A stretch of DNA of 64,000 nucleotides from Deltaproteobacteria bacterium (GTDB lineage Bacteria > Desulfobacterota > Desulfobacteria > Desulfobacterales > UBA2156): assembly GCA_019309485.1 (NCBI GenBank), contig JAFDGC010000003.1, positions 6,851 to 70,850 of the forward strand, read 5' to 3'. Under the pieces are notes generated by a model. That model made no database searches and was not told the origin of the DNA. It saw only the letters and a program-made list of their open reading frames with translations. Below, piece after piece: positions 52,213-62,824 of the stretch (position 1 is the stretch's first letter; each line of letters opens with the position of its first letter). The position numbers and the translations under genes were made by a program.

Positions 52213-53691
52213 ATGAATGTCCTGCTCGTCAATCCAGCGGTTCCAAACACCTTCTGGAGTTTCGCCTTTGCGTTGCCCTTTATCCGTAAAAAATCCGCCT
52301 ATCCGCCGTTGGGATTGTTGACCGTGGCGGCCATGTTGCCGGAAGAATGGCCCAAGCGCGTGGTGGATCTCAATGTGGAAAAACTCACCGAAGAGGATCT
52401 GGACTGGGCGGACACCGTTTTTATAGGAGGGATGGTCATCCAGCGTCGATCCGCCCAACAGGTCATTTCCCGGTGCAAAGAAAAAAAACTCAAAATCGTT
52501 GCCGGCGGACCGCTGTTCACCTGTGAACCGGACGTCTTTGACGAGGTGGACCACATGGTCCTTGACGAAGCCGAGATCACCCTGCCGGCCTTCCTCGAGG
52601 ATTTAAGCGCGGGCCTTCCGAAAAAAATTTATCGGGCCCACGGCCACTGCGATTTGCGTCAGACCCCCATCCCCTTGTGGCATTTGATCCGGATGGACAA
52701 ATACGCCTCCATGAGCCTCCAGTTTTCCAGAGGATGCCCCTTCAACTGTGATTTTTGCAACGTCACCGTCTTGTTCGGCCACCGGCCCCGGATAAAATCC
52801 GCACAGCAGGTGGTCGCGGAGCTGGATGCCATTTATGAGGCCGGATGGCGTTCCAATATCTTTTTTGTGGACGATAATTTCATCGGCAACAAAAGATACC
52901 TGAAAACCGAACTGTTGCCAGCGTTGATCGAGTGGCGGAAAGGGAAAAAAGGGTGTGTTTTTTTTACGGAAGCATCCATCAACCTGGCCGATGACCCGGA
53001 GCTGATGCACCTGATGGTGAAAGCCGGTTTCGACTCCGTCTTTATCGGGATCGAATCCCCGGATGAAGCCTCCTTGACGGAGTGCTTGAAAAGTCAGAAT
53101 AAAAACCGGGATCTTCTGGAAAGTGTCCGGACCATCCACCGATCCGGTCTTCAGGTCCAGGGCGGATTCATCGTGGGCTTCGACAGCGACACCCAATCCA
53201 CATTCCAGCGACAGATCGAATTCATCCAGAAAAGCGGGATCGTCACGGCCATGGTGGGACTCCTTCAGGCCCCCCCGGGGACCCGCCTCTTCGATCGGCT
53301 CAACCGGGAAAACCGTCTGGCGGGCACTTTTTCAGGAGACAACGTGGACGGGAGCACCAACATCATCCCCAAGATGGGACTGGATACGCTCTTACAGGGA
53401 TATCGGTCCATCATGCGCCATATATATTCTCCCCGGAACTTTTACCGGCGCATCCGGACGTTTCTAAAAGAGTTCAAGGCGCCGGAAGTCCGTTCCCCTC
53501 TGGATTTCCAGAGGTTGTGCGCTTTTTTTCGGGCGGCGGTGCGGCTCGGAATATTGGGCAAAGAGCGGTTTCAATACTGGTATCTCGTTTTCTGGACCCT
53601 GATCCGGCGCCCCCGCCTCTTTCCGCTGGCCATCACCCTTTCCATCTACGGCCATCATTTCCGGAAAATCTACGAACTCCACATCCGGTAA
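52213..53691 (+). CDS. B12-binding domain-containing radical SAM protein (DUF4070-type C-terminus)
   Basis: N-terminal B12-binding-like domain (PPLGLLTVAAML) and the radical SAM cluster SRGCPFNCDFCNV; 492 aa. Confidence 0.85.
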   Translation: MNVLLVNPAVPNTFWSFAFALPFIRKKSAYPPLGLLTVAAMLPEEWPKRVVDLNVEKLTEEDLDWADTVFIGGMVIQRRSAQQVISRCKEKKLKIVAGGPLFTCEPDVFDEVDHMVLDEAEITLPAFLEDLSAGLPKKIYRAHGHCDLRQTPIPLWHLIRMDKYASMSLQFSRGCPFNCDFCNVTVLFGHRPRIKSAQQVVAELDAIYEAGWRSNIFFVDDNFIGNKRYLKTELLPALIEWRKGKKGCVFFTEASINLADDPELMHLMVKAGFDSVFIGIESPDEASLTECLKSQNKNRDLLESVRTIHRSGLQVQGGFIVGFDSDTQSTFQRQIEFIQKSGIVTAMVGLLQAPPGTRLFDRLNRENRLAGTFSGDNVDGSTNIIPKMGLDTLLQGYRSIMRHIYSPRNFYRRIRTFLKEFKAPEVRSPLDFQRLCAFFRAAVRLGILGKERFQYWYLVFWTLIRRPRLFPLAITLSIYGHHFRKIYELHIR

Positions 53692-53914: not shown

Positions 53915-54763
53915 TCAAGTACCCCTTTCGGGGGATTCCCCCCAGACCCGCCTGGAGCGTTCAATCTTTTTTTTCACCGTTTGCCAGGTCTTTTGCGTCA
54001 AAAAAGAGGATTCCCACCGGCGGATCATCTCCGCGAACATGGGAAACGGCACCGTGAAAGACAATTCGTCGGTCTTGAAAAACTTGCGCGCCGAGGGATC
54101 CCAGCCCCCCACCACGGCCTTGGTCTTCCCTTTCTCCCTGTAGTGTAAGGGCCAGGCCACCAGGCTCCCGCAGGCCGCACTCCATGGAGAACAGACCGCC
54201 TCCGGATCGTTGGTGACGAATGCCGCCAGTTGATGAAGGCCGCAAAGCGTTTCGGGACGGGCGAAAAAACTCACGAGTTCCGGCGTTTCAGTATCTGAAA
54301 AAAAAGACAGCGGCTGTATGACACAATACGGTTTCGGGGCCGGCCGGGGATCCACATCATCGAAAATCCTCCTCAGCGCCTCGGGGGAGTCACAGTAAAG
54401 CTCCCCTTCCATCCGTCCGGGCACGCCGGTGCTGACATAATGGATGATGGTCTCCGTCTGGGGTTTCAAAAAGCCCATCCAGAACGCCCCGCCCGGGCAG
54501 CCGAACTGTTCGGCGGAAAAGGCGGCCGGAACCTGCTTTTTCCGCGCCCGCCAAAGCACACCCATGACACAGGAAAACCCGCCGAAAACCGCCTGCCAGT
54601 CGATGGCGTTTTGCATCTCCTTTTCCCGGGTCGGCAAATCCAGGGGTTTGGGGGAAAGGCTTTCCCCCGGTTTTTCATCGGAAAAAACGATCCCCATGGG
54701 TTCTTCGTCCAGGCCCAAAACCTCGAGAAAAGCGGGAACGGCATCCTTGAATCCAGCGTCCAT
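53915..54763 (-). CDS. DUF169-like protein (family assignment tentative)
   Basis: 282 aa: MDAGFKDAVPAFLEVLGLDEEPMGIVFSD...FGGFSCVMGVLWRARK...FGCPGGAFWMGF. The start follows the SD GAGGAGG. Confidence 0.45.
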   Translation of the reverse strand: MDAGFKDAVPAFLEVLGLDEEPMGIVFSDEKPGESLSPKPLDLPTREKEMQNAIDWQAVFGGFSCVMGVLWRARKKQVPAAFSAEQFGCPGGAFWMGFLKPQTETIIHYVSTGVPGRMEGELYCDSPEALRRIFDDVDPRPAPKPYCVIQPLSFFSDTETPELVSFFARPETLCGLHQLAAFVTNDPEAVCSPWSAACGSLVAWPLHYREKGKTKAVVGGWDPSARKFFKTDELSFTVPFPMFAEMIRRWESSFLTQKTWQTVKKKIERSRRVWGESPERGT

Positions 54764-54844
54764 GCAGCCTCCTCTTTTACGATTTCATCCGGTTTTACCG
54801 TCGTGAAAATGAAATTGCAATGCCCGGGAAAAACAATTCGCCCC

Positions 54845-56179
54845 CTATAATTCCTCCAGGAAACGGGTGTGCAGACGCCCCTGAATGAAATCCGGGTGAT
54901 CCAAAATCTTTGCGTGGAAGGAGACGGTGTTTTTAATCCCTTTGGTGCGCACCTCGAACAAGGCCCGCCGCATCCGAGAAATGGCCGAGGGGCGGTCCTT
55001 GCCCCAGGCGATTACCTTGCATATCAGGGAATCATAAAAGGGCGGGACCGTGTATCCCGGATACAGGTGCGTGTCCACCCGGATCCCGGCCCCCCCCGGA
55101 AGTACCAGTTCCTCCACCGTTCCCGGGGACGGCATGAACCCGTCATCGGGATCTTCGGCATTGATCCGGCATTCCAGGGCCCACCCGTGGGGTCGGATCT
55201 TTTCCTGGGAAAGCAAAAGCGCCTCTCCGGATGCGATGCGGATCTGCCGGCAGACCAGGTCGATGCCTGTGGTCATCTCGGTCACCGGATGCTCCACCTG
55301 GATCCGGGCGTTCATCTCCATGAAGTAAAAGGCACCGTCCGGTGCGACGAGGAACTCCACGGTCCCGGCATTGGTGTATCCCAGGAATCGAACAACGGCA
55401 AGGGCCGTGTCCCCCATTTTTTCCCGAAGTGCGGCATCCACGAAAGGAGAAGGGGCCTCCTCCATGAGTTTCTGGTGCCGTTTCTGGATGCTGCATTCCC
55501 GTTCCCCCAGATGAACGGCGTTTCCGAAGTGATCGGAAAGGACCTGGACTTCGATATGGCGCGATTTTTCTATGTATTTTTCCAGATAAAGCTCCGGGAG
55601 ATCGAAGGCGGCCTTGGCCTCTCCCGCGGCTACCGGGAAGACCTCCGACAGCGATTTTGCGTCCCGGGCGATCCGCATCCCCTTCCCGCCGCCGCCGCCG
55701 GACGCCTTCAGGATGACCGGATACCCCACATTTTCGGCGGCGTCCAGCGCGTGTGCCACCGTTGCCACGGGGCCTTCGGATCCCGGAATCACCGGGACCC
55801 CCTTTTTTATGAGGTGCTTCCGGGCCTTGGCCTTGTTCCCTGCCAGTGCCATGCACGCGGGGCTCGGGCCGATGAAGGCGATGCCGGCGTCTTCGCATGC
55901 GCGGGCGAATTCCGGGTTTTCCGCCAAAAAGCCGTATCCCGGATGGACGGCGTCCGCACGGCTTTTCCGAGACGCCTCCAGGAGGGCGTCCATGTTGAGA
56001 TAGCTTTTGCGGCTGAGGGCCGGCCCGATGGGAACGGCTTCATCGGCCAACCGCACATGCAAGGACCCCTGATCGGCGTCCGAATAGACAGCCACGGCAC
56101 GGACACCCAGGTCCCGGCAGGCCCGAATCACCCGCAGCGCGATCTCTCCCCGATTGGCGATTAGAATTTTTCGAAACAC
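54845..56179 (-). CDS. accC: biotin carboxylase (AccC-type ATP-grasp)
   Basis: MFRKILIANRGEIALRVIRACRDLG, GGGGKGMRIA and EMNARIQVEHPVTE. Confidence 0.93.
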   Translation of the reverse strand: MFRKILIANRGEIALRVIRACRDLGVRAVAVYSDADQGSLHVRLADEAVPIGPALSRKSYLNMDALLEASRKSRADAVHPGYGFLAENPEFARACEDAGIAFIGPSPACMALAGNKAKARKHLIKKGVPVIPGSEGPVATVAHALDAAENVGYPVILKASGGGGGKGMRIARDAKSLSEVFPVAAGEAKAAFDLPELYLEKYIEKSRHIEVQVLSDHFGNAVHLGERECSIQKRHQKLMEEAPSPFVDAALREKMGDTALAVVRFLGYTNAGTVEFLVAPDGAFYFMEMNARIQVEHPVTEMTTGIDLVCRQIRIASGEALLLSQEKIRPHGWALECRINAEDPDDGFMPSPGTVEELVLPGGAGIRVDTHLYPGYTVPPFYDSLICKVIAWGKDRPSAISRMRRALFEVRTKGIKNTVSFHAKILDHPDFIQGRLHTRFLEEL

Positions 56180-56204
56180 GATGATTCGGTCTTTTTCGAT
56201 CCCG

Positions 56205-56456
56205 TCAGTCGATTTCGATTTCCATGAGGTCCTGGTTTTTCATCACCAGTTCCTCGTTTTCCACCAATATCCGTTTCACCACACCGGGCCGCCCGGCCCG
56301 AAGCTCCGTGAAGACCTTCATGGATTCGATGATGCAGACCACGTCCGATGCATTCACCCGTTGACCTTGTTCCACAAACGGTTTTTCATCCGGAGAAGGG
56401 GTGCGGTAAAAGGTGCCCATCAGCGGGGATTTCACGACATGCGTTTCAGCGGTCAT
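56205..56456 (-). CDS. short biotin carboxyl carrier protein (biotinyl domain only, 83 aa)
   Basis: SPLMGTFYRTPSPDEKPFVEQGQRVNASDVVCIIESMKVFTEL has the (E)xMK biotinylation motif. The ATG at 56456 is preferred, and there is no N-terminal or linker region as in housekeeping AccB. Confidence 0.8.
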   Translation of the reverse strand: MTAETHVVKSPLMGTFYRTPSPDEKPFVEQGQRVNASDVVCIIESMKVFTELRAGRPGVVKRILVENEELVMKNQDLMEIEID

Positions 56457-56667
56457 CCGGTATCCTTTCCTGCTTGCGTGCAGCATTATCGAGCAACCTT
56501 GATGGCTTCGCAAAAAGGCCATCTGCGGCGTTGCGCGGCATCCTTCGTCGTTGCGGCGTATCTATAAGTATGCCTCATTCTGAAGGATTTGCGCGCCTTG
56601 CATCTGGCGCTTTTTACTTTGCCATTCCGAATTGGACTTTCTACGATTTCATCGAGTTTGATGGAAA

Positions 56668-56708
56668 AATATACTTGACATATATTTTTTAAATATGTCA
56701 AGTATATT
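56668..56708. promoter_or_regulatory. 41-nt near-perfect palindrome, candidate operator of the adjacent GntR regulator
   Basis: AATATACTTGACATAT (56668-56683) pairs 16/16 with ATATGTCAAGTATATT (56693-56708) across a 9-nt AT spacer, 33 nt upstream of the gntR GTG. Confidence 0.55.
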
Positions 56709-56752
56709 ATAAAAGACACGCCACCAACGGAAACGACGCCGTGAAAGGATCC

Positions 56753-57445
56753 ATGAAAGCGATTTCCGAAAAACCAGGAAACCGGCAGCCCCTCGGTGTC
56801 GTCGCCTACGAAAAGATCCAGCAAAAGATCATCACCCTCGATTACAAGCCCGGCCAGAGCCTTGAAGAGAGAGAACTCATGGAACACCTGGGCATGGGTC
56901 GCACCCCCATCCGGGAAGCGTTGTTGCGGTTGACCGGAGAAAAATTCGTGGAATCCAAGCCCAGCAAGGGGTTTATGGTCCGGCCCATCACCCTTGAAAA
57001 CACCCGCGCGGTTTTCGAGGCCATGAAAGTGCTGGAAACCGGAGCGGTGAAGCCGGCACTCCGGCAGGACGTCTCCTCCATTTTGCCCCGAATGAAAAAG
57101 GCCAATACCGTCATGGAAGCGGCCGTGGAAAGGGGAGACCCGTTGCGTCTCGTGGAAGCCAATCATGAATTTCACCTGTATTTCGCCCAATGCACCTTCA
57201 ACACCTATCTCGCCCGGTATATCGGTGAAGTGCGCACCGAGGCCAAACGTCTTTCCTACTTGTCTTATGCCAATGATATCGAACCGGATCGGTCCCTGAA
57301 AACCCATTACGAGTCCGTATTAAAGGAGCACGAGGCCATCATCCGGCTTTTGGAAAAAAGGGATGAACACGCCCTGGTCGACGTGCTCGTGGAACATATC
57401 CAGGCATTTCAACACCGGATTTTTCTTTTTTTCATGCGTACCTGA
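56753..57445 (+). CDS. GntR-family transcriptional regulator (FadR/FCD subfamily)
   Basis: The wHTH LEERELMEHLGMGRTPIREALLRL plus a helical FCD-like C-terminal domain. An alternative GTG start is at 56741. Confidence 0.88.
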   Translation: MKAISEKPGNRQPLGVVAYEKIQQKIITLDYKPGQSLEERELMEHLGMGRTPIREALLRLTGEKFVESKPSKGFMVRPITLENTRAVFEAMKVLETGAVKPALRQDVSSILPRMKKANTVMEAAVERGDPLRLVEANHEFHLYFAQCTFNTYLARYIGEVRTEAKRLSYLSYANDIEPDRSLKTHYESVLKEHEAIIRLLEKRDEHALVDVLVEHIQAFQHRIFLFFMRT

Positions 57446-57487
57446 TTCCATTTCAACCCACAACCCAAAGCATACAAGGAGGAAAAA

Positions 57488-58480
57488 ATGAAAAGATCGA
57501 TTTTGATCCTGGCCTGTCTCATTTTTGTCGCCGGAGCGGCTGTGGATGCAATTGCAGAAATCAAGTGGGACTGTCACTTGAATTATCCGGCCGGAAATTT
57601 TCATTCCAAAGGGGCCCAGCGGTTCGCCGACCGGGTCAGGGAAGCGACCAACGGCGAACTCAACATCGTCTTGCATCCGGGAGCGGCCCTGGGATTCAAG
57701 GGTCCGGAACTCCTCCGGGCCGTGGCCGAAGGGCAATTGGTCATCGCGGAGGTCCCCACAGGCATGGTGGAAGGAGATGCGCCGGTCCTGGCGTTGACCG
57801 CCCAGCCCTTTATTTCCACCAATGCGTTCGAACAGCGGCTTTTGTATCAACTGGCCAAACCCACTTATGCAAAGGTGCTGAAAAAATTCAATCAGTTCAC
57901 CTTGTATTCCTCGGTGTGGCCTTTTTCCGGTATTTATACCCAGCGCCCCATCCAGACCGCCGCGGATCTCAAGGGACTGAAGATGCGCGTCTATGACGGC
58001 ACCGGCCTTGCTTTCGGAAAGGCCACCGGCATCGCGGCCCGGAAGATGCCCTTTTCCGAGGTCTATCCCGCCATGAAAGCCGGGCTCTTGGATTCCATGT
58101 ACACCTCCTCCGTCTCCGGGGTGGACGCCAAGGCCTGGGAAGTCCTCAAATACTTTACGCCCATCAATATTGTGGGTCCCGTGAACATGTTCAATGTGAA
58201 CCTGGACGCCTGGAACAAGCTCCCCGCAGACATCCAGAAAAAGGTCCTCGAGATCGCCGAAGACATGGAAAACGAAATGTGGGAACTGGCCGGGGATATG
58301 GACCGCAAGAGCCGGGCGACCTTGCAGGAAAACGGCATGATCATCAATCCGGTAAGCAAGACCTTCCGAAAAGAACTCTCCGCAATCGGTGAACAGCTCC
58401 GGAAAGCGTGGGTCGAGAAGGCCGGGGAAGACGCCCAAAAAATCCTGGAAGAATATTACCGCATCACGGGAAGAAAATAA
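57488..58480 (+). CDS. TRAP transporter substrate-binding protein (DctP family)
   Basis: A signal peptide, then the DctP-like pattern (...HSKGAQRFADRVREATNGELNIVLHPGAALG...). Confidence 0.9.
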   Translation: MKRSILILACLIFVAGAAVDAIAEIKWDCHLNYPAGNFHSKGAQRFADRVREATNGELNIVLHPGAALGFKGPELLRAVAEGQLVIAEVPTGMVEGDAPVLALTAQPFISTNAFEQRLLYQLAKPTYAKVLKKFNQFTLYSSVWPFSGIYTQRPIQTAADLKGLKMRVYDGTGLAFGKATGIAARKMPFSEVYPAMKAGLLDSMYTSSVSGVDAKAWEVLKYFTPINIVGPVNMFNVNLDAWNKLPADIQKKVLEIAEDMENEMWELAGDMDRKSRATLQENGMIINPVSKTFRKELSAIGEQLRKAWVEKAGEDAQKILEEYYRITGRK

Positions 58481-58554
58481 GCGCATTGATATAAGCGCGG
58501 ATCCATTAATCAACGGGAGCGGCAAAATCGCCGCTCCCCTCTTCGGAAACCGCC

Positions 58555-59058
58555 ATGCACACCATCATCAAGGCAACGGAAAAGCTTAGCAACGCCCTGG
58601 CCGTCTTTTCGGGGATCCTGTTGGGACTGATGACGCTCCTCATCCTTTTTGAAATCTTTTTATGGAACTTCTTTCAGAAAACCACCCTCATCGCCGATGA
58701 ATACTCCGCCTACGGGCTTGCGGCCATCATCTTTCTCGGCGCTGGGTATTGCCTGAAGGAAAAGGGGCACATCCGAATCACTTTAATTCTGACGTTTTTA
58801 CCGGATAAAGCCGCCCGCATCGTCACGTTCATCGGAACCGCCTTCACCACCGTCTTCATGGGGTACATGGGATGGTATCTTTTTAAAATGGTGGCCACGG
58901 CGCACCGTTACCATTCCACGTCCGGCACCCTGACCCATACCCCGTTGTGGATCCCCCAGGTTTTCATGCTGGTCGGCGCGGCCGCCTTCTTCCTGCAACT
59001 GGTGGGCATCACCTTGAAAACGTACGCGGCCATCGACACCGGAGAGAATGTGATCTGA
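58555..59058 (+). CDS. TRAP transporter small permease (DctQ family)
   Basis: 167 aa with four TM helices, between the P and M components. Confidence 0.85.
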   Translation: MHTIIKATEKLSNALAVFSGILLGLMTLLILFEIFLWNFFQKTTLIADEYSAYGLAAIIFLGAGYCLKEKGHIRITLILTFLPDKAARIVTFIGTAFTTVFMGYMGWYLFKMVATAHRYHSTSGTLTHTPLWIPQVFMLVGAAAFFLQLVGITLKTYAAIDTGENVI

Positions 59059-60368
59059 TGGACGCCAACATGACCCACATGAGTCTCTTGGTCTTCGGGG
59101 TTCTTTTCTTGACCCTGGGATCGGGGATCTGGGTGGGTTTTTCCCTTTTCATCGTCGGCTTCGTGGGGATGACGTTTTTCAGTACGTTGCCCGCGGGGAA
59201 CAACATTGCCTCTTCCATTTGGGCCACCATTGAAAAGTGGGAATACGTGGCGCTCCCCCTTTTCATCCTCATGGGGGAAATATTGTTCCGATCCGGTATA
59301 TCCGAAAAGCTCTTCAACGCCCTGGTCCCCTGGCTGTACCGGCTCCCCGGGGGATTGCTCCTCATGAACATTCTATCGTGCACCCTCTTTGCCGCCGTTT
59401 CCGGGTCCAGCGCCGCCACCACCGCCACGGTTGGCCGGATCACCCTTGCCGAACTGGACCGCCTGGGATACGACCGTCGCCTCGCCATGGGCTCTTTGGC
59501 CGGGGCCGGAACCCTGGGATTTCTCATCCCCCCGTCGTTGATCATGATCGTCTACGCCATTTTAGCCGAGGTCTCCATCGGTAAAATGTTCATGGCCGGC
59601 ATTTTGCCGGGCATCCTCCTTTCGAGTATTTATTCCGGCTATATCATCTACCGGGGATTGCGGAACCCGGACATCGCCCCCAGGGCCCGGGAACACTATA
59701 CATGGAGACATCGTTTGATCGCCATGAAGGACCTGGCCCCCACCTTGATCCTGATCCTCATGGTCCTGGGGAGCATCTATGCCGGCATCGCCACACCGAC
59801 GGAAGCCGCCGCCCTCGGGGTGCTGGGGGCCTTTCTGTTCGCATGCATCAACCGCCGGATGAATTCCAGGATTCTCTTGGAATGCCTGGTGGGTGCCGTG
59901 AAAACCAACGCCATGATCATGCTCATCGTCATGGGGGCCGGCTTTTTATCCCGGGTCATGGGCTTTTTGGGGATCCCCGCGGCCATCACCACCGCCATCA
60001 TCGAAATGGATTTATCTCCTTACGCCCTTATGATCCTTCTGGGAGGAGTGTATATCGTTTTGGGATGCCTTTTGGACGGCTTTTCCATTGTGGTGATGAC
60101 GCTTCCCATCGCGCTGCCCATGGTCACCGCCGCAGGATTTGATCCCATCTGGTTCGGGATTTACCTGATCCTCATGGTGGAAGTCAGCCAGATCACCCCG
60201 CCCGTGGGATTCAATCTCTTTGTCATCCAGGGATTGACGGAAGAACCGATTTTGAACATCGCCCGGCACGCGCTCCCGTTTTTCTTTTTGATGTTGTTGA
60301 CCACCGCCATTTTAACGGTCTTTCCAGAAATCGCCCTGTATCTGCCGAAACTTATGACAGTAAAATAA
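59058..60368 (+). CDS. TRAP transporter large permease (DctM family)
   Basis: The ATG at 59058 overlaps the dctQ-like stop (TGATG). It is a polytopic membrane protein with the DctM pattern. Confidence 0.92.
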   Translation: MDANMTHMSLLVFGVLFLTLGSGIWVGFSLFIVGFVGMTFFSTLPAGNNIASSIWATIEKWEYVALPLFILMGEILFRSGISEKLFNALVPWLYRLPGGLLLMNILSCTLFAAVSGSSAATTATVGRITLAELDRLGYDRRLAMGSLAGAGTLGFLIPPSLIMIVYAILAEVSIGKMFMAGILPGILLSSIYSGYIIYRGLRNPDIAPRAREHYTWRHRLIAMKDLAPTLILILMVLGSIYAGIATPTEAAALGVLGAFLFACINRRMNSRILLECLVGAVKTNAMIMLIVMGAGFLSRVMGFLGIPAAITTAIIEMDLSPYALMILLGGVYIVLGCLLDGFSIVVMTLPIALPMVTAAGFDPIWFGIYLILMVEVSQITPPVGFNLFVIQGLTEEPILNIARHALPFFFLMLLTTAILTVFPEIALYLPKLMTVK

Positions 60369-60380
60369 AGGAAGACGGAT

Positions 60381-61160
60381 ATGAAGCACATCGATCTCAA
60401 CTGCGACATGGGGGAAAGCTTCGGCGCCTACACGCTGGGTATGGACGAAGCCGTGATCCGGCATATCTCTTCGGCCAATATCGCCTGCGGATGGCATGCC
60501 GGCGACGCACAGGTGATGGGGCGGACCGTGAAAGCGGCAAAGGCCCACGGCGTCGGTGTCGGAGCCCATCCCGGATATCCGGATTTAATGGGATTCGGCC
60601 GCCGCCACATGGACTGTACTCCCGAAGAGATTCGAAATTACGTGATTTACCAGATCGGGGCCGTTCAGGCCTTCTGTGCCGCCTACGGCACACGACTTCG
60701 CCATGTCAAGCCCCACGGTGCCCTCTATCTTACCGCCGTGGAAAACGAAACCGTGGCCCGGGCCGTGGCCGAGGCCGTCGTCTCCGTGGACCCGAATCTG
60801 TTGTACGTGGCGCTTGCCGGCGCCAAGGGGAAACGGATGCGTACCATCGGAGAAACCGTGGGCCTGAACGTGGTGTACGAAGCCTTCCCTGACCGTGCCT
60901 ACACTTTTGACGGCACCCTGGTCTCACGGAAAAAACCCGGCGCGGTGATCCACGATCCGAAACAAGTCGCCGAACGGGCCCTGATCATGGCCAAAGAAAA
61001 CAAGGTTGTCGCCGAAGACGGTACCGTGATCCCCCTGGAGGTGCACACCCTGTGTGTACACGGAGACACTCCTTCCGCCGTGGACCTGGTCGGAAGCATC
61101 CGGGAAACCCTGGAAGCCGAAGGGATCGACATCCGGCCCATGGGCGTTTGCTTCGGGTAA
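60381..61160 (+). CDS. pxpA: 5-oxoprolinase subunit A (LamB/YcsF family)
   Basis: MKHIDLNCDMGESFGAY...ANIACGWHAGD...VKPHGALY. Confidence 0.9.
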   Translation: MKHIDLNCDMGESFGAYTLGMDEAVIRHISSANIACGWHAGDAQVMGRTVKAAKAHGVGVGAHPGYPDLMGFGRRHMDCTPEEIRNYVIYQIGAVQAFCAAYGTRLRHVKPHGALYLTAVENETVARAVAEAVVSVDPNLLYVALAGAKGKRMRTIGETVGLNVVYEAFPDRAYTFDGTLVSRKKPGAVIHDPKQVAERALIMAKENKVVAEDGTVIPLEVHTLCVHGDTPSAVDLVGSIRETLEAEGIDIRPMGVCFG

Positions 61161-61169
61161 CGCGTTCTC

Positions 61170-61877
61170 ATGAATACGGGCGTGTTTGAAAAAGCGCGGT
61201 TTCGCATCGCCGGGGACCGGGGGCTCCTGGTGGAATACGGGGATTGCATTCATCCCGATGTCCTTCACAAGGTCCGGTCCGTGGCCCTCCTTTTGACCCA
61301 AGAGGCGCCGGCGGGGATCCTGGAAATCCTTCCCACCTACCGCTCCCTCCTGATCGTTTATGATCCGTTGGTTGTGACACCGGGGACACTGGCACGCCTG
61401 CTGGAAAAGATGGAAACAAGGCTTTCCGGCATCCGTATCCCCGATCCCAAGTGTGTGGAGATTCCGGTGTGTTACGGCGGCGACTTCGGCCCGGACATGG
61501 ATTTTGTAGCCCAAACCCATGGACTGGAGACCGAAGATGTGATCCGGATCCACAGCGCTCCGGAATATCTCATCTACATGGTGGGGTTTACCCCGGGGTT
61601 CCCTTTTCTGGGCGGGCTTCCTGAAATCCTCCATACCCCGAGGCTGGAAACGCCCCGCACCCGGGTACCAGAAGGATCCGTGGGAATCGCCAACAATCAA
61701 ACCGGCGTCTACCCGGTGGCCAGCCCGGGCGGATGGCGGATTATCGGACGGACCCCTCTTAATCTCTTCCGGCCAAAGGATCCGAATCCGTTTTTTTACC
61801 AGGCCGGGGACCGGATCCGATTCCGCCCCATCCCGGAAAGGGAATACCACCGGATCCGGCAGGAGGAAAGTGCATGA
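61170..61877 (+). CDS. pxpB: 5-oxoprolinase subunit B (KipI / AHS1 / CT_C_D family)
   Basis: RIAGDRGLLVEYG...EIPVCYGGDFGPD...FTPGFPFLGGLP...VGIANNQTGVYP. Confidence 0.88.
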   Translation: MNTGVFEKARFRIAGDRGLLVEYGDCIHPDVLHKVRSVALLLTQEAPAGILEILPTYRSLLIVYDPLVVTPGTLARLLEKMETRLSGIRIPDPKCVEIPVCYGGDFGPDMDFVAQTHGLETEDVIRIHSAPEYLIYMVGFTPGFPFLGGLPEILHTPRLETPRTRVPEGSVGIANNQTGVYPVASPGGWRIIGRTPLNLFRPKDPNPFFYQAGDRIRFRPIPEREYHRIRQEESA

Positions 61878-62824
61878 TGGACGCCCTTAAGGTGCTGGCC
61901 CCCGGACCCTACACCACGGTACAAGACCCGGGCCGCTTCGGTTATCAGCAGGTGGGAATTCCCGTTTCCGGTTCCCTGGACGCGTTCAGCAGTCAAATCG
62001 CCAACCTTCTCGTGGGAAACCCCCCGGAAAGCGCCGTACTGGAAATCACCATCCTCGGTCCGCGGCTTTGTGCCCTCATCGACTTCGATATGGCCCTGTG
62101 CGGCGCGGAAATGGATCTTTCCGTCAACGATGCACCGGCGAACCGGTGGGAAACGGTCCGGGTCAAGGCCGGGGAGACGATCGCCGTGGGCCAGGCCAAA
62201 ACCGGGTGCCGGGGATATCTTGCCGTGGGCGGCGGGATCGATGTGCCCCTCGTGATGGGGAGCCGGTCCACTTATGTGGGGGCGTCCCTGGGCGGATACC
62301 AGGGGCGGTGTCTGCAGACCGGCGATATTCTCAAGATCCATGCCAAACCGCCGTTACCCCGGACCCGGCGGCTTCCCGAAGCGTGGATTCCGGGATCTCC
62401 TTCGGAAATCACCTTACGGGTCATTCCCGGTCCCCAGGACGATTTTTTTGATGCCGCCCTGGATATTCTCTTCCAATCCCCGTATATGGTGACCCCGAAA
62501 GCCGACCGCATGGGCTACCGCCTCCAGGGTCCCGCCCTTGAGATCAAGGAAGGGATGCCCCGGAGCATCATCTCCGAACCCACCATGCCGGGGGGGATCC
62601 AGATCCCCGCGGACCGGCAACCCATCATCCTTTTGGTGGAACAGACCGTGGGGGGATATGCCAAGATCGGCACGGTCATCACCCCGGACCTCCCCCGCGT
62701 GGCCCAAGCCACCCCCGGGGACACCCTCCGGTTCCAACGCGTTACACTGGAAGACGCCCACCGTATTTACAAAGACCACAGGAATCGATTCCAGGAAATC
62801 ACCGAGTATCTTTCGGCCCGATAA
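61874..62824 (+). CDS. pxpC: 5-oxoprolinase subunit C (KipA / AHS2 / CT_A_B, biotin-dependent carboxyltransferase family)
   Basis: TTVQDPGRFGYQQVGIPVSGSLD...GCRGYLAVGGGI...ADRMGYRLQG...GGIQIPADRQPIILL. Confidence 0.88.
   Translation: MMDALKVLAPGPYTTVQDPGRFGYQQVGIPVSGSLDAFSSQIANLLVGNPPESAVLEITILGPRLCALIDFDMALCGAEMDLSVNDAPANRWETVRVKAGETIAVGQAKTGCRGYLAVGGGIDVPLVMGSRSTYVGASLGGYQGRCLQTGDILKIHAKPPLPRTRRLPEAWIPGSPSEITLRVIPGPQDDFFDAALDILFQSPYMVTPKADRMGYRLQGPALEIKEGMPRSIISEPTMPGGIQIPADRQPIILLVEQTVGGYAKIGTVITPDLPRVAQATPGDTLRFQRVTLEDAHRIYKDHRNRFQEITEYLSAR

What the first reader, a model, noticed from the sequence alone, without database searches (positions are those of the whole stretch)
53915..62824. 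Possible split, urea-carboxylase-like biotin enzyme: short BCCP-accC-DUF169 divergent from gntR-TRAP-pxpABC
Seen: on the minus strand, an 83-aa biotinyl-domain-only carrier (motif IESMKV), a biotin carboxylase (AccC type) and a DUF169-like protein. On the plus strand, divergently across a 285-nt spacer, lie a GntR/FCD regulator, a complete TRAP transporter and pxpA-pxpB-pxpC. Established: PxpB and PxpC belong to the AHS1/AHS2 (Pfam CT_C_D and CT_A_B) families, which build the carboxyltransferase domain of urea carboxylase. In that enzyme they are fused to a biotin carboxylase and a BCCP domain. PxpABC itself is known as an ATP-dependent 5-oxoprolinase that is not reported to need biotin. Housekeeping AccB proteins are about twice as long as this carrier. 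Inference: BC + BCCP + PxpB/C (+ PxpA) could form a multi-subunit biotin-dependent carboxylase or decarboxylase, or a lactam-opening system, acting on an organic acid or lactam imported by the TRAP system. Alternatively accBC is simply the fatty-acid ACC pair parked next to an oxoprolinase operon. The DUF169 partner has no known function.
Basis: partly seen in the sequence, partly recalled or inferred. Interest (0 to 1): 0.55.

Follow-up and report, generated by a model that had tools for sequence, protein, structure and literature searches.

The report
Biotin carboxylase pair tied to 5-oxoprolinase
An uncultured sulfate-reducing bacterium keeps a dedicated biotin carboxylase and mini biotin carrier beside, and under the same control site as, its pyroglutamate uptake and ring-opening genes; gene sets with these five parts are already annotated elsewhere, but nobody knows what the biotin part does.

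Summary
The biotin carboxylase (BC) is the only one in this 98%-complete Desulfobacterales genome. It is still not housekeeping: the genome has no accA/accD. Congeners with no BC at all keep FabD and the same BC-independent carboxyltransferases.

BCCP-AccC and GntR-TRAP-PxpABC come and go together as one ~8-kb block within the genus. The 12 Pxp-linked BCs form one clade apart from 33 other Desulfobacterota BCs. A conserved palindromic operator sits in the shared spacer. The linkage survives replacement of the TRAP by an ABC transporter.

DUF169 is only a flank. The substrate is probably 5-oxoproline, because DctP is closest to the pyroglutamate-binding DctP6/7.

The 'urea-carboxylase-like' label fails. 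PxpB is the canonical type, with Arg at the urea-carboxylase catalytic Lys and without the urea-carboxylase insertions. Orthologous PxpABC also occurs in BC-free genomes.

Best reading (~0.5): a biotin-assisted accessory to a PxpABC 5-oxoprolinase.

The kind is already known but uncharacterised (PA0492-0496, mumTLUHC, annotated operons). Notes of this scan list 39 findings in at least 38 genomes that name these parts; some carry a sodium-pump module instead of a BC. New member of a known kind.

The parts
54845..56179 (-). Biotin carboxylase (AccC type), dedicated Pxp-linked lineage
   Evidence: TIGR00514 649 bits. Only BC in the genome. Catalytic motifs intact. One clade with the 11 other Pxp-linked BCs, SH-aLRT 99.
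56205..56456 (-). 83-aa biotin carboxyl carrier (biotinyl domain only, Lys in IESMKV)
   Evidence: PF00364 and NF005457 93.8 bits, cut-off 87. Orthologues are 82-85 aa.
56668..56708 (.). Palindromic operator (TTGACATAT-N9-ATATGTCAA core) in the shared divergent control region
   Evidence: Conserved in the BCCP/GntR or BCCP/DctP spacers of 13 loci, although the surrounding spacer sequences differ in length and sequence. Also found upstream of pxpA in a BC-less Desulfotignum. The core has one match in the own genome at up to one substitution per arm; a second hit needs a substitution in each arm.
56741..57445 (+). GntR/FCD regulator, probable repressor acting at the palindrome
   Evidence: PF00392 + PF07729. 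Analogous to the C. glutamicum 5-oxoproline-binding GntR-type PxpR (PMC13274462).
57488..58480 (+). TRAP solute-binding protein DctP, pyroglutamate-binding subfamily by similarity
   Evidence: Best PDB hits are 2pfy (E 8e-49) and 2pfz (E 3e-41), i.e. B. pertussis DctP7/DctP6 solved with 5-oxoproline.
58555..59058 (+). TRAP small membrane subunit DctQ
   Evidence: PF04290.
59085..60368 (+). TRAP large membrane subunit DctM (start approximate)
   Evidence: PF06808, TIGR00786 364 bits.
60381..61160 (+). PxpA (LamB/YcsF) lactam hydrolase subunit
   Evidence: PF03746 E 5e-101; NF003814 371 bits, cut-off 226.
61170..61877 (+). PxpB (CT_C_D), canonical Arg-type
   Evidence: TIGR00370 equivalog 204 bits, cut-off 146. 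Closest solved relatives are PH0987, KipI and YbgJ. Arg158 aligns with UC Lys1605.
61874..62824 (+). PxpC (CT_A_B)
   Evidence: PF02626 E 2e-88; TIGR00724 289 bits. Best PDB hit is E. coli YbgK, then urea carboxylase and MSMEG_0435.
53915..54763 (-). DUF169 gene: conserved flank, not part of the module (possibly co-transcribed here)
   Evidence: Orthologues at 63-92% identity in 14 relatives, next to BC only in G003 and G004 besides this genome. G002 has BCCP-AccC without it. No terminator-like site found in the 81-nt AccC-DUF169 spacer.

Best explanation
The locus is a GntR-controlled pyroglutamate (5-oxoproline) utilisation module. A DctP6/7-type TRAP transporter imports the lactam. A canonical-type PxpABC opens it to glutamate. 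A dedicated BC plus mini-BCCP, expressed from the same operator, works directly with PxpB/PxpC. The inferred mechanism is that BC spends ATP to carboxylate the carrier's biotin, and the carrier docks in the biotin pocket that PxpC-type proteins possess. The carboxyl group (or the bound biotin) then assists activation of the lactam amide before PxpA hydrolyses it, and CO2 is released again. Shown here: gene identities, co-inheritance, a dedicated BC lineage, a shared operator, and the absence of any classical ACC. Inferred: physical contact between BCCP and PxpBC, the chemistry, and the substrate. Because close PxpABC orthologues live in BC-free genomes, the biotin part is most likely an accessory or booster rather than an obligatory half of the enzyme.
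For: (1) Within the genus, BC and PxpC are both present (G000, G002, G003, G004) or both absent (G001 at 100% and G005 at 94% completeness). In G001 the whole AccC-to-PxpC block is replaced by a HerA-like gene between the same flanks. (2) All 12 Pxp-linked BCs form one clade (SH-aLRT 99) separate from 33 other Desulfobacterota BCs, and the branching of the BC tree looked, by eye, consistent with the PxpB+C tree. All 13 loci labelled BC-linked or contig-split in that tree fall in one PxpB+C clade of 24 (SH-aLRT 99). L130, labelled 'none' in the tree and found later to lie on the same contig as a BCCP-AccC pair, lies in that clade too. None of 38 rows outside the clade has a BC nearby. (3) The palindromic operator is conserved in the shared spacer of every linked locus. 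(4) In Desulfotignum the TRAP is replaced by a peptidase-like gene plus an Opp-type ABC transporter, yet BCCP-AccC stay with GntR-PxpABC. (5) There is no accA/accD in the genome. The only other carboxyltransferases (12S + 5S-biotinyl transcarboxylase, GcdA-like) persist unchanged in BC-free relatives. (6) Elsewhere in the phylum, BC-BCCP pairs sit next to their carboxyltransferase genes. (7) The same five components form tight annotated operons in Agrobacterium, Azospirillum and the archaeon Haladaptatus, and PA0493/PA0494 are a BCCP-like and a BC-like gene in the P. aeruginosa PA0492-0496 cluster. (8) Cryo-EM shows that the Arg-type PxpC/PxpB homologues MSMEG_0435-0436 bind a BCCP and hold its biotin in a position suited to carboxyl transfer (PMC13012033).
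Against: Orthologous PxpABC, including the same TRAP type (DctP 82% identical), occurs in the complete chromosome CP070768.1 and in G006, G010 and G341, which have no BC at all. No residues of PxpA/B/C change recurrently when BC is lost. PxpB is the canonical type, with Arg158 at the UC catalytic Lys1605, and is only 25-27% identical to the CT_C_D proteins of tight biotin operons. No multimer model or biochemical test could be run.
Confidence: 0.5

Rival explanations
1. BC+BCCP are a separate ATP-dependent carboxylation module, co-induced with pyroglutamate/glutamate catabolism. They plug into a carboxyltransferase encoded elsewhere (the 12S PF01039 subunit or the 5S pyruvate/oxaloacetate subunit). 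This would give an acetyl-/propionyl-CoA or pyruvate carboxylase.
For: The genome has BC-less carboxyltransferases. BC passes the accC equivalog. PxpABC orthologues work without BC in other genomes. Short BCCPs serve PF01039 carboxylases elsewhere in the phylum.
Against: Every member of this BC clade is next to PxpABC, and none is next to another carboxyltransferase or alone. BC-free sisters keep the 12S/5S/GcdA genes. The 5S subunit already carries its own biotinyl domain, which would make a separate carrier redundant.
Confidence: 0.22
2. Regulatory pairing, as proposed for mycobacteria. PxpBC binds and sequesters the carrier's biotin (or the reverse), so that the carboxylation state of BCCP tunes 5-oxoprolinase or another activity without carboxyl transfer to the lactam.
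For: MSMEG_0435-0436 (same Arg-type) sequester BCCP biotin and lower propionyl-CoA carboxylase activity. No urea carboxylase activity was detected for them.
Against: Here there is no known carboxylase for the dedicated BC/BCCP to serve. An ATP-burning BC kept purely as a regulator is costly. Co-expression from one operator suggests stoichiometric partners.
Confidence: 0.13
3. accBC is simply the housekeeping fatty-acid ACC pair parked next to an oxoprolinase operon.
For: It is the only BC and the only free BCCP in the genome, and FabD is present.
Against: No accA or accD. G001 (100% complete), G005, G006 and CP070768.1 have FabD but no BC. The BC is inherited only together with PxpABC and shares its operator.
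Confidence: 0.04

Closest known systems
Prokaryotic 5-oxoprolinase PxpABC (E. coli YbgJKL, B. subtilis KipI/KipA/YcsF, C. glutamicum pxpR-pxpTABC)
   Same: PxpA, PxpB and PxpC are adjacent. PxpB passes the equivalog cut-off. There is a GntR-type regulator beside a transporter-pxpABC operon. The likely substrate is 5-oxoproline.
   Different: It carries its own BC and mini-BCCP under the same operator. It has a TRAP importer rather than an APC-type one. PxpC is below the PxpC equivalog cut-off (227 vs 500 bits).
Tight five-gene operons pxpA-BCCP-BC-CT_C_D-CT_A_B (Agrobacterium pAt, Azospirillum, Haladaptatus); P. aeruginosa PA0492-0496, where only PA0493/PA0494 were confirmed from papers as BCCP-like and BC-like
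   Same: The same five protein components, including an ~80-aa carrier and a stand-alone BC. The function is uncharacterised.
   Different: There, the genes form one compact operon. The CT_C_D protein is UC-like: it has Lys at the Lys1605 position, UC-type insertions and a C-terminal extension. Here PxpB is the canonical Arg-type (25-27% identity), and BC/BCCP are divergently transcribed across a regulator and a transporter.
Urea carboxylase / urea amidolyase (K. lactis, PDB 3VA7, 5I8I) and, from memory, the UC-like A. nidulans LamA acting with LamB in lactam use
   Same: BC, BCCP and a PxpC/PxpB-homologous carboxyltransferase domain. LamB is a PxpA homologue, and lamA/lamB are lactam catabolism genes.
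   Different: Those are single fused polypeptides with the catalytic Lys1605. Here the proteins are separate, with Arg at that site, and a carboxylate-bearing lactam rather than urea is the likely substrate.
M. smegmatis MSMEG_0435-0436 bound to the long-chain acyl-CoA carboxylase (PDB 9YX5)
   Same: An Arg-type PxpC/PxpB pair that binds a BCCP domain and its biotin.
   Different: In mycobacteria the carrier belongs to an essential acyl-CoA carboxylase and the effect is inhibitory. Here the carrier and BC are dedicated, and no classical carboxylase partner is encoded nearby.
A. baumannii mumTLUHC operon
   Same: A BC-family gene in an operon with a gene its authors call an allophanate hydrolase homologue (mumH). 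An earlier scan note, not checked here, describes this operon type as PxpA + DUF1445 + fused PxpB-PxpC + BC/BCCP. Only genetic data exist for it.
   Different: It is linked to an NRAMP Mn transporter and to urea use; the BC mutant fails on urea. There is no TRAP, and it comes from a different lineage.

Membership tests
PxpABC 5-oxoprolinase | PxpA of the LamB/YcsF family above the curated cut-off | tested here: met
   NF003814 370.7 bits vs cut-off 226; PF03746 E 5e-101.
PxpABC 5-oxoprolinase | PxpB equivalog (TIGR00370) above cut-off | tested here: met
   204.2 bits vs 145.55. Closest PDB relatives are PH0987, KipI and YbgJ.
PxpABC 5-oxoprolinase | PxpC equivalog (NF045499) above cut-off | tested here: not met
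   227 bits vs cut-off 500. Only the domain-level model TIGR00724 passes, at 289 vs 230 bits.
PxpABC 5-oxoprolinase | ATP-dependent hydrolysis of 5-oxoproline to glutamate | not testable with these tools
   The only support is indirect: similarity of DctP to the 5-oxoproline-binding DctP6/7.
Urea carboxylase-type carboxyltransferase | General-base Lys (KlUA Lys1605) in the C/D subdomain | tested here: not met
   Arg158 in the window PxpB and Arg in all 23 PxpB sequences aligned (19 Desulfobacterota, 2 Bacillota, 4 Pseudomonadota, counting the window). Lys is found in the Agrobacterium, Azospirillum and Haladaptatus CT_C_D proteins and aligns with UC 'GTKY'. The role of this Lys is taken from PMC5770610.
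Urea carboxylase-type carboxyltransferase | UC-type insertions and C-terminal extension of the C/D subdomain | tested here: not met
   The 16-aa, 3-aa and 6-aa insertions and the ~35-aa tail are present in the three tight-operon proteins and align end to end with 3VA7. They are absent from the window PxpB.
Urea carboxylase-type carboxyltransferase | BC and BCCP encoded with the carboxyltransferase | tested here: met
   Present as separate genes, transcribed divergently.
Housekeeping acetyl-CoA carboxylase AccABCD | AccA and AccD carboxyltransferase subunits in the genome | tested here: not met
   TIGR00513 and TIGR00515 give only weak hits to the 12S subunit.
Housekeeping acetyl-CoA carboxylase AccABCD | Full-length AccB (TIGR00531) above cut-off | tested here: not met
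   97.1 bits vs 115.2. Only the C-terminal biotinyl domain is present.
Housekeeping acetyl-CoA carboxylase AccABCD | Conserved in close relatives that make fatty acids | tested here: not met
   G001, G005, G006 and CP070768.1 have FabD but no BC.
Pyroglutamate-binding DctP subfamily (DctP6/DctP7) | Closest solved relatives are the 5-oxoproline-bound receptors | tested here: met
   2pfy E 8e-49 and 2pfz E 3e-41, far ahead of SiaP at 1e-21. The ligand is taken from PMC13274462.
Pyroglutamate-binding DctP subfamily (DctP6/DctP7) | Ligand-contacting residues conserved | not tested
   I had no residue list from the structure paper.

The most novel reading that the evidence does not exclude
Canonical (Arg-type) PxpBC enzymes in general use the (carboxy)biotin of a BCCP as co-substrate or cofactor. 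They would borrow the housekeeping carrier where one exists (AccB in E. coli, AccA3 in mycobacteria). In ACC-free lineages such as this one, they would travel with their own BC-BCCP pair. In BC-free relatives, a transcarboxylase-charged biotinyl domain could substitute. If true, this would revise the mechanism of the widespread prokaryotic 5-oxoprolinase and reinterpret the MSMEG_0435-0436/biotin structure as catalytic.
Probability: 0.15. Interest if true: 0.8.

Novelty: new member of a known kind. Interest (0 to 1): 0.45.

Why it matters
How PxpBC couples ATP to lactam opening is not understood. What BC/BCCP do beside Pxp-like genes has been an open annotation problem since at least 2016-2018, when the PA0493/PA0494 products were called of unknown function and mumTLUHC was described. 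This lineage offers an unusually clean natural experiment. It has no other biotin carboxylase and no ACC. The genes are gained and lost within the genus as one block. PxpB is the canonical type rather than urea-carboxylase-like. It therefore isolates the question 'does a genuine 5-oxoprolinase use biotin?' and names the exact proteins to test. The Lys/Arg marker at the UC Lys1605 position may also help separate UC-like carboxyltransferases from true PxpB in annotation; here it rests on three UC-like operons against 23 PxpB sequences.

Tried and rejected
(1) DUF169 as a partner was rejected on distribution. The PDB sequence search gave no useful relative.

(2) NF005457 as a marker of Pxp-linked mini-BCCPs failed. 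It also scores the C-terminal domain of ordinary AccB. The short BCCPs it found across the phylum sit beside AccC, and of the five loci whose neighbours I examined, two have a pair of PF01039 carboxyltransferase genes alongside and none has Pxp.

I used genome loci and annotated plasmid records instead.

(4) I looked for residues of PxpA/B/C that change recurrently when BC is lost. There was no convincing signal.

(5) The sigma-70 and terminator scans of the control region were uninformative.

(6) The Niehaus 2017 and Fan 2012 papers are not held.

(7) The careful PxpB+C tree did not finish; the quick IQ-TREE result was used.

(8) No multimer prediction is offered by the tools, so BCCP-PxpC docking was not modelled.

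Full report
OBSERVATION

- Minus strand: DUF169 (53915-54763), an AccC-type biotin carboxylase (54845-56179) and a biotinyl-domain-only carrier.
- The carrier is 83 aa when read from the ATG behind a good Shine-Dalgarno sequence (56205-56456). Its relatives in public data are 82-85 aa.
- Plus strand, across a 284-nt spacer: a GntR/FCD regulator, DctP, DctQ, DctM, PxpA, PxpB and PxpC.
- BC carries all the usual catalytic motifs.

The window lies in a 2.93-Mb genome that is 98% complete. The closest public records are named uncultured Desulfobacteraceae/Desulfobacterales.

IS THIS THE HOUSEKEEPING ACC?

This BC is the only biotin carboxylase in the genome; the other hits are carbamoyl-phosphate synthetases. 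The only other clear biotinyl domain is fused to a 5S-type subunit (a third, weak hit lies in an unexamined 391-aa frame).

There is no AccA or AccD. The genome has two PF01039 carboxyltransferases:

- a 12S subunit beside the 5S-biotinyl fusion, methylmalonyl-CoA mutase and succinyl-CoA synthetase, i.e. a transcarboxylase;
- a GcdA-like protein beside thiolase, hydroxybutyryl-CoA dehydrogenase and crotonase.

FabD and BirA are present.

Among 40 relatives, 18 have no BC at E <= 1e-60. These include G001 (same genus, 100% complete), G005, G006 and G038 (one contig). I checked five of them (G001, G005, G006, G008, G038): all keep the 12S + 5S-biotinyl genes, and four also keep a second, GcdA-like PF01039 gene. 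FabD above its cut-off was found in G001, G005, G006 and CP070768.1; in G038 it matched only inside a 3636-aa frame, below the cut-off.

So fatty-acid synthesis in this group does not depend on a BC. 'Only copy, hence housekeeping' does not follow.

LINKAGE

DUF169 orthologues (63-92% identity) occur in 14 relatives. Besides this genome, only G003 and G004 have BC next to them. G002 has BCCP-AccC followed directly by the radical-SAM gene, without DUF169. DUF169 is therefore a flank.

By contrast, BC and PxpC are present together or absent together in all six genomes of the genus. In G001 the entire AccC-to-PxpC block is replaced by an 830-aa HerA-like ORF. This lies between the same neighbours, the peptide-ABC ATPase and DUF169.

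The divergent layout BCCP-AccC // [GntR]-DctPQM-PxpABC recurs in other families of the order (G007, G029, G039). It also recurs in further MAGs (L127, L143, L160). In fragmented assemblies it is split across contig ends.

In one Desulfotignum the TRAP genes are replaced by a 1114-aa M14-peptidase-like gene plus an Opp-type ABC transporter. Even there, BCCP-AccC remain on one side and GntR-PxpABC on the other.

TREES

In a PxpB+PxpC tree of 62 loci, the 13 loci labelled BC-linked or contig-split fall in one clade of 24 (SH-aLRT 99). L130, labelled 'none' in that tree and found later to share a contig with a BCCP-AccC pair, lies in that clade too. None of the 38 rows outside the clade has a BC nearby (quick tree, because the careful search did not finish).

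In a BC tree, the 12 Pxp-linked BCs form one clade (SH-aLRT 99) apart from 33 other BCs of the phylum. Its internal branching looked, by eye, consistent with the PxpBC tree.

This is a dedicated BC lineage that has co-evolved with this PxpABC clade.

REGULATION

A palindrome with the core TTGACATAT-N7-9-ATATGTCAA is conserved in the BCCP/GntR (or BCCP/DctP) spacers of 13 loci, although those spacers differ widely in length and sequence. It also lies directly upstream of pxpA in a BC-less Desulfotignum. In the own genome the core matches once at up to one substitution per arm; a second hit needs a substitution in each arm.

In C. glutamicum a GntR-type repressor, PxpR, binds 5-oxoproline and controls pxpTABC. 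Independent regulation of the two divergent units is therefore unlikely.

SUBSTRATE

The best solved relatives of DctP are the Bordetella pertussis receptors DctP7 and DctP6 (2pfy, 2pfz; E 8e-49 and 3e-41, against 1e-21 for SiaP). Both were crystallised with 5-oxoproline.

The peptidase/Opp variant and the neighbouring peptide-ABC genes fit a peptide-derived lactam.

IS IT UREA-CARBOXYLASE-LIKE?

Annotated records show a tight operon pxpA-BCCP(~80 aa)-BC-CT_C_D-CT_A_B in Agrobacterium, Azospirillum and the archaeon Haladaptatus. Their CT_C_D proteins have three defining properties:

- they are only 25-27% identical to the window PxpB;
- they carry insertions and a C-terminal extension that align end to end with K. 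lactis urea carboxylase;
- they have a Lys aligned with Lys1605, the proposed general base.

The window PxpB has Arg158 there, as do all 22 other PxpB sequences aligned from Desulfobacterota, Bacillota and Pseudomonadota loci. It lacks the insertions, passes the PxpB equivalog cut-off, and is closest to PH0987, KipI and YbgJ. Membership in the UC-type carboxyltransferases is therefore not met.

MSMEG_0436 is also Arg-type. Its partner MSMEG_0435 was nevertheless seen by cryo-EM to bind a BCCP and hold its biotin 'positioned to participate in a carboxylation reaction'. Arg-type complexes can therefore engage biotinyl carriers.

EVIDENCE AGAINST AN OBLIGATORY BIOTIN ENZYME

Inside the BC-linked PxpBC clade, several genomes have no BC at all:

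- the complete chromosome CP070768.1, which has the same TRAP type (DctP 82% identical);
- G006 and G010.

Two other Desulfotignum genomes carry only a BC-BCCP fusion and a pyruvate carboxylase. A further BC-free genome, G341 (locus L145), carries PxpABC from a neighbouring clade.

No PxpA/B/C positions change recurrently when BC is lost.

CONCLUSION

BC/BCCP are very probably functional partners of this PxpABC module. They are an accessory, not the defining half of a split urea carboxylase.

My ranking is:

- biotin-assisted 5-oxoprolinase: about 0.5
- a separate carboxylation step using the 12S or 5S subunit: about 0.2
- regulatory sequestration: about 0.13
- housekeeping ACC: below 0.05

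The remaining ~0.1 is left for readings not listed.

WHAT IS KNOWN ALREADY

- The P. aeruginosa PA0492-0496 cluster includes PA0493, a 'probable biotin-requiring enzyme' 40% identical to AccB, and PA0494, a BC homologue; their function is stated to be unknown.
- A. baumannii mumTLUHC has been published with a urea phenotype for its BC gene.
- lamA and lamB are lactam-catabolism genes of A. nidulans. That LamA is urea-carboxylase-like is from my memory.
- P. putida PP_2920-2 shows that a PxpABC paralogue can be specific for butyrolactam.
- Notes of this scan list 39 findings in at least 38 other genomes that name these parts. Of the eight shown, four describe BC/BCCP beside PxpABC-type genes and four describe a sodium-pump OadG-BCCP-OadB module beside PxpABC with no BC. 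These are unchecked AI notes, used only as leads.

This locus is therefore a new member of a known but uncharacterised kind. Its value is as a clean test case.

Noticed in passing
whole genome G000 and relatives; transcarboxylase locus L013:6338-10288: This genome has no AccA/AccD. Among 40 relatives, 18 have no biotin carboxylase at E <= 1e-60, including a 100%-complete congener, a one-contig genome and the complete chromosome CP070768.1. Of those checked, G001, G005, G006 and CP070768.1 keep FabD, and G001, G005, G006, G008 and G038 keep a 12S + 5S-biotinyl transcarboxylase. Malonyl-CoA may therefore be made by transcarboxylation rather than by an ATP-dependent ACC.
   Followed up: partly
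window 56668-56708: The palindromic operator (TTGACATAT-N9-ATATGTCAA core) is conserved in 13 related loci despite unrelated flanking spacer sequence, and its core has one close match in the own genome. It also precedes pxpA in a BC-less Desulfotignum (L138:8337).
   Followed up: yes
alignment A1 columns ~183; window PxpB Arg158: A Lys/Arg dichotomy at the position of urea-carboxylase Lys1605, together with three insertions and a C-terminal tail, separates the three UC-like CT_C_D proteins of tight BC operons examined here from the 23 canonical PxpB sequences aligned. It may be usable as an annotation marker.
   Followed up: partly
L233:11867-19618 (Desulfotignum MAG): In the variant module the TRAP is replaced by a 1114-aa protein with an M14 carboxypeptidase domain plus an Opp/Dpp-type ABC transporter. 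These lie between BCCP-AccC and GntR-PxpABC, which hints at pyroglutamyl peptides as the source of the lactam.
   Followed up: partly
L036:7245-9737 (congener G001): At the place of the AccC-to-PxpC block, G001 carries a single 830-aa HerA/DUF87-like ATPase gene between the same flanking genes. The site is therefore a variable hotspot.
   Followed up: no
window 53915-54763 and 52213-53691: DUF169 and a B12-binding radical-SAM/DUF4070 gene are convergent neighbours in four other genomes of the genus (G001, G003, G004, G005). G002 keeps the radical-SAM gene but gave no DUF169 match. DUF169 orthologues at 63% identity or more occur in 14 of 40 relatives. No function was found and no solved relative exists.
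   Followed up: partly
In the closest relative (L119) the BCCP-GntR spacer copy is only partly conserved.
   Followed up: no
L221:4632-7760, L225:10401-13534: In other Desulfobacterota, short stand-alone BCCP + AccC pairs sit beside two tandem PF01039 carboxyltransferase genes. Mini-BCCPs also appear to serve ordinary acyl-CoA carboxylases in this phylum.
   Followed up: partly
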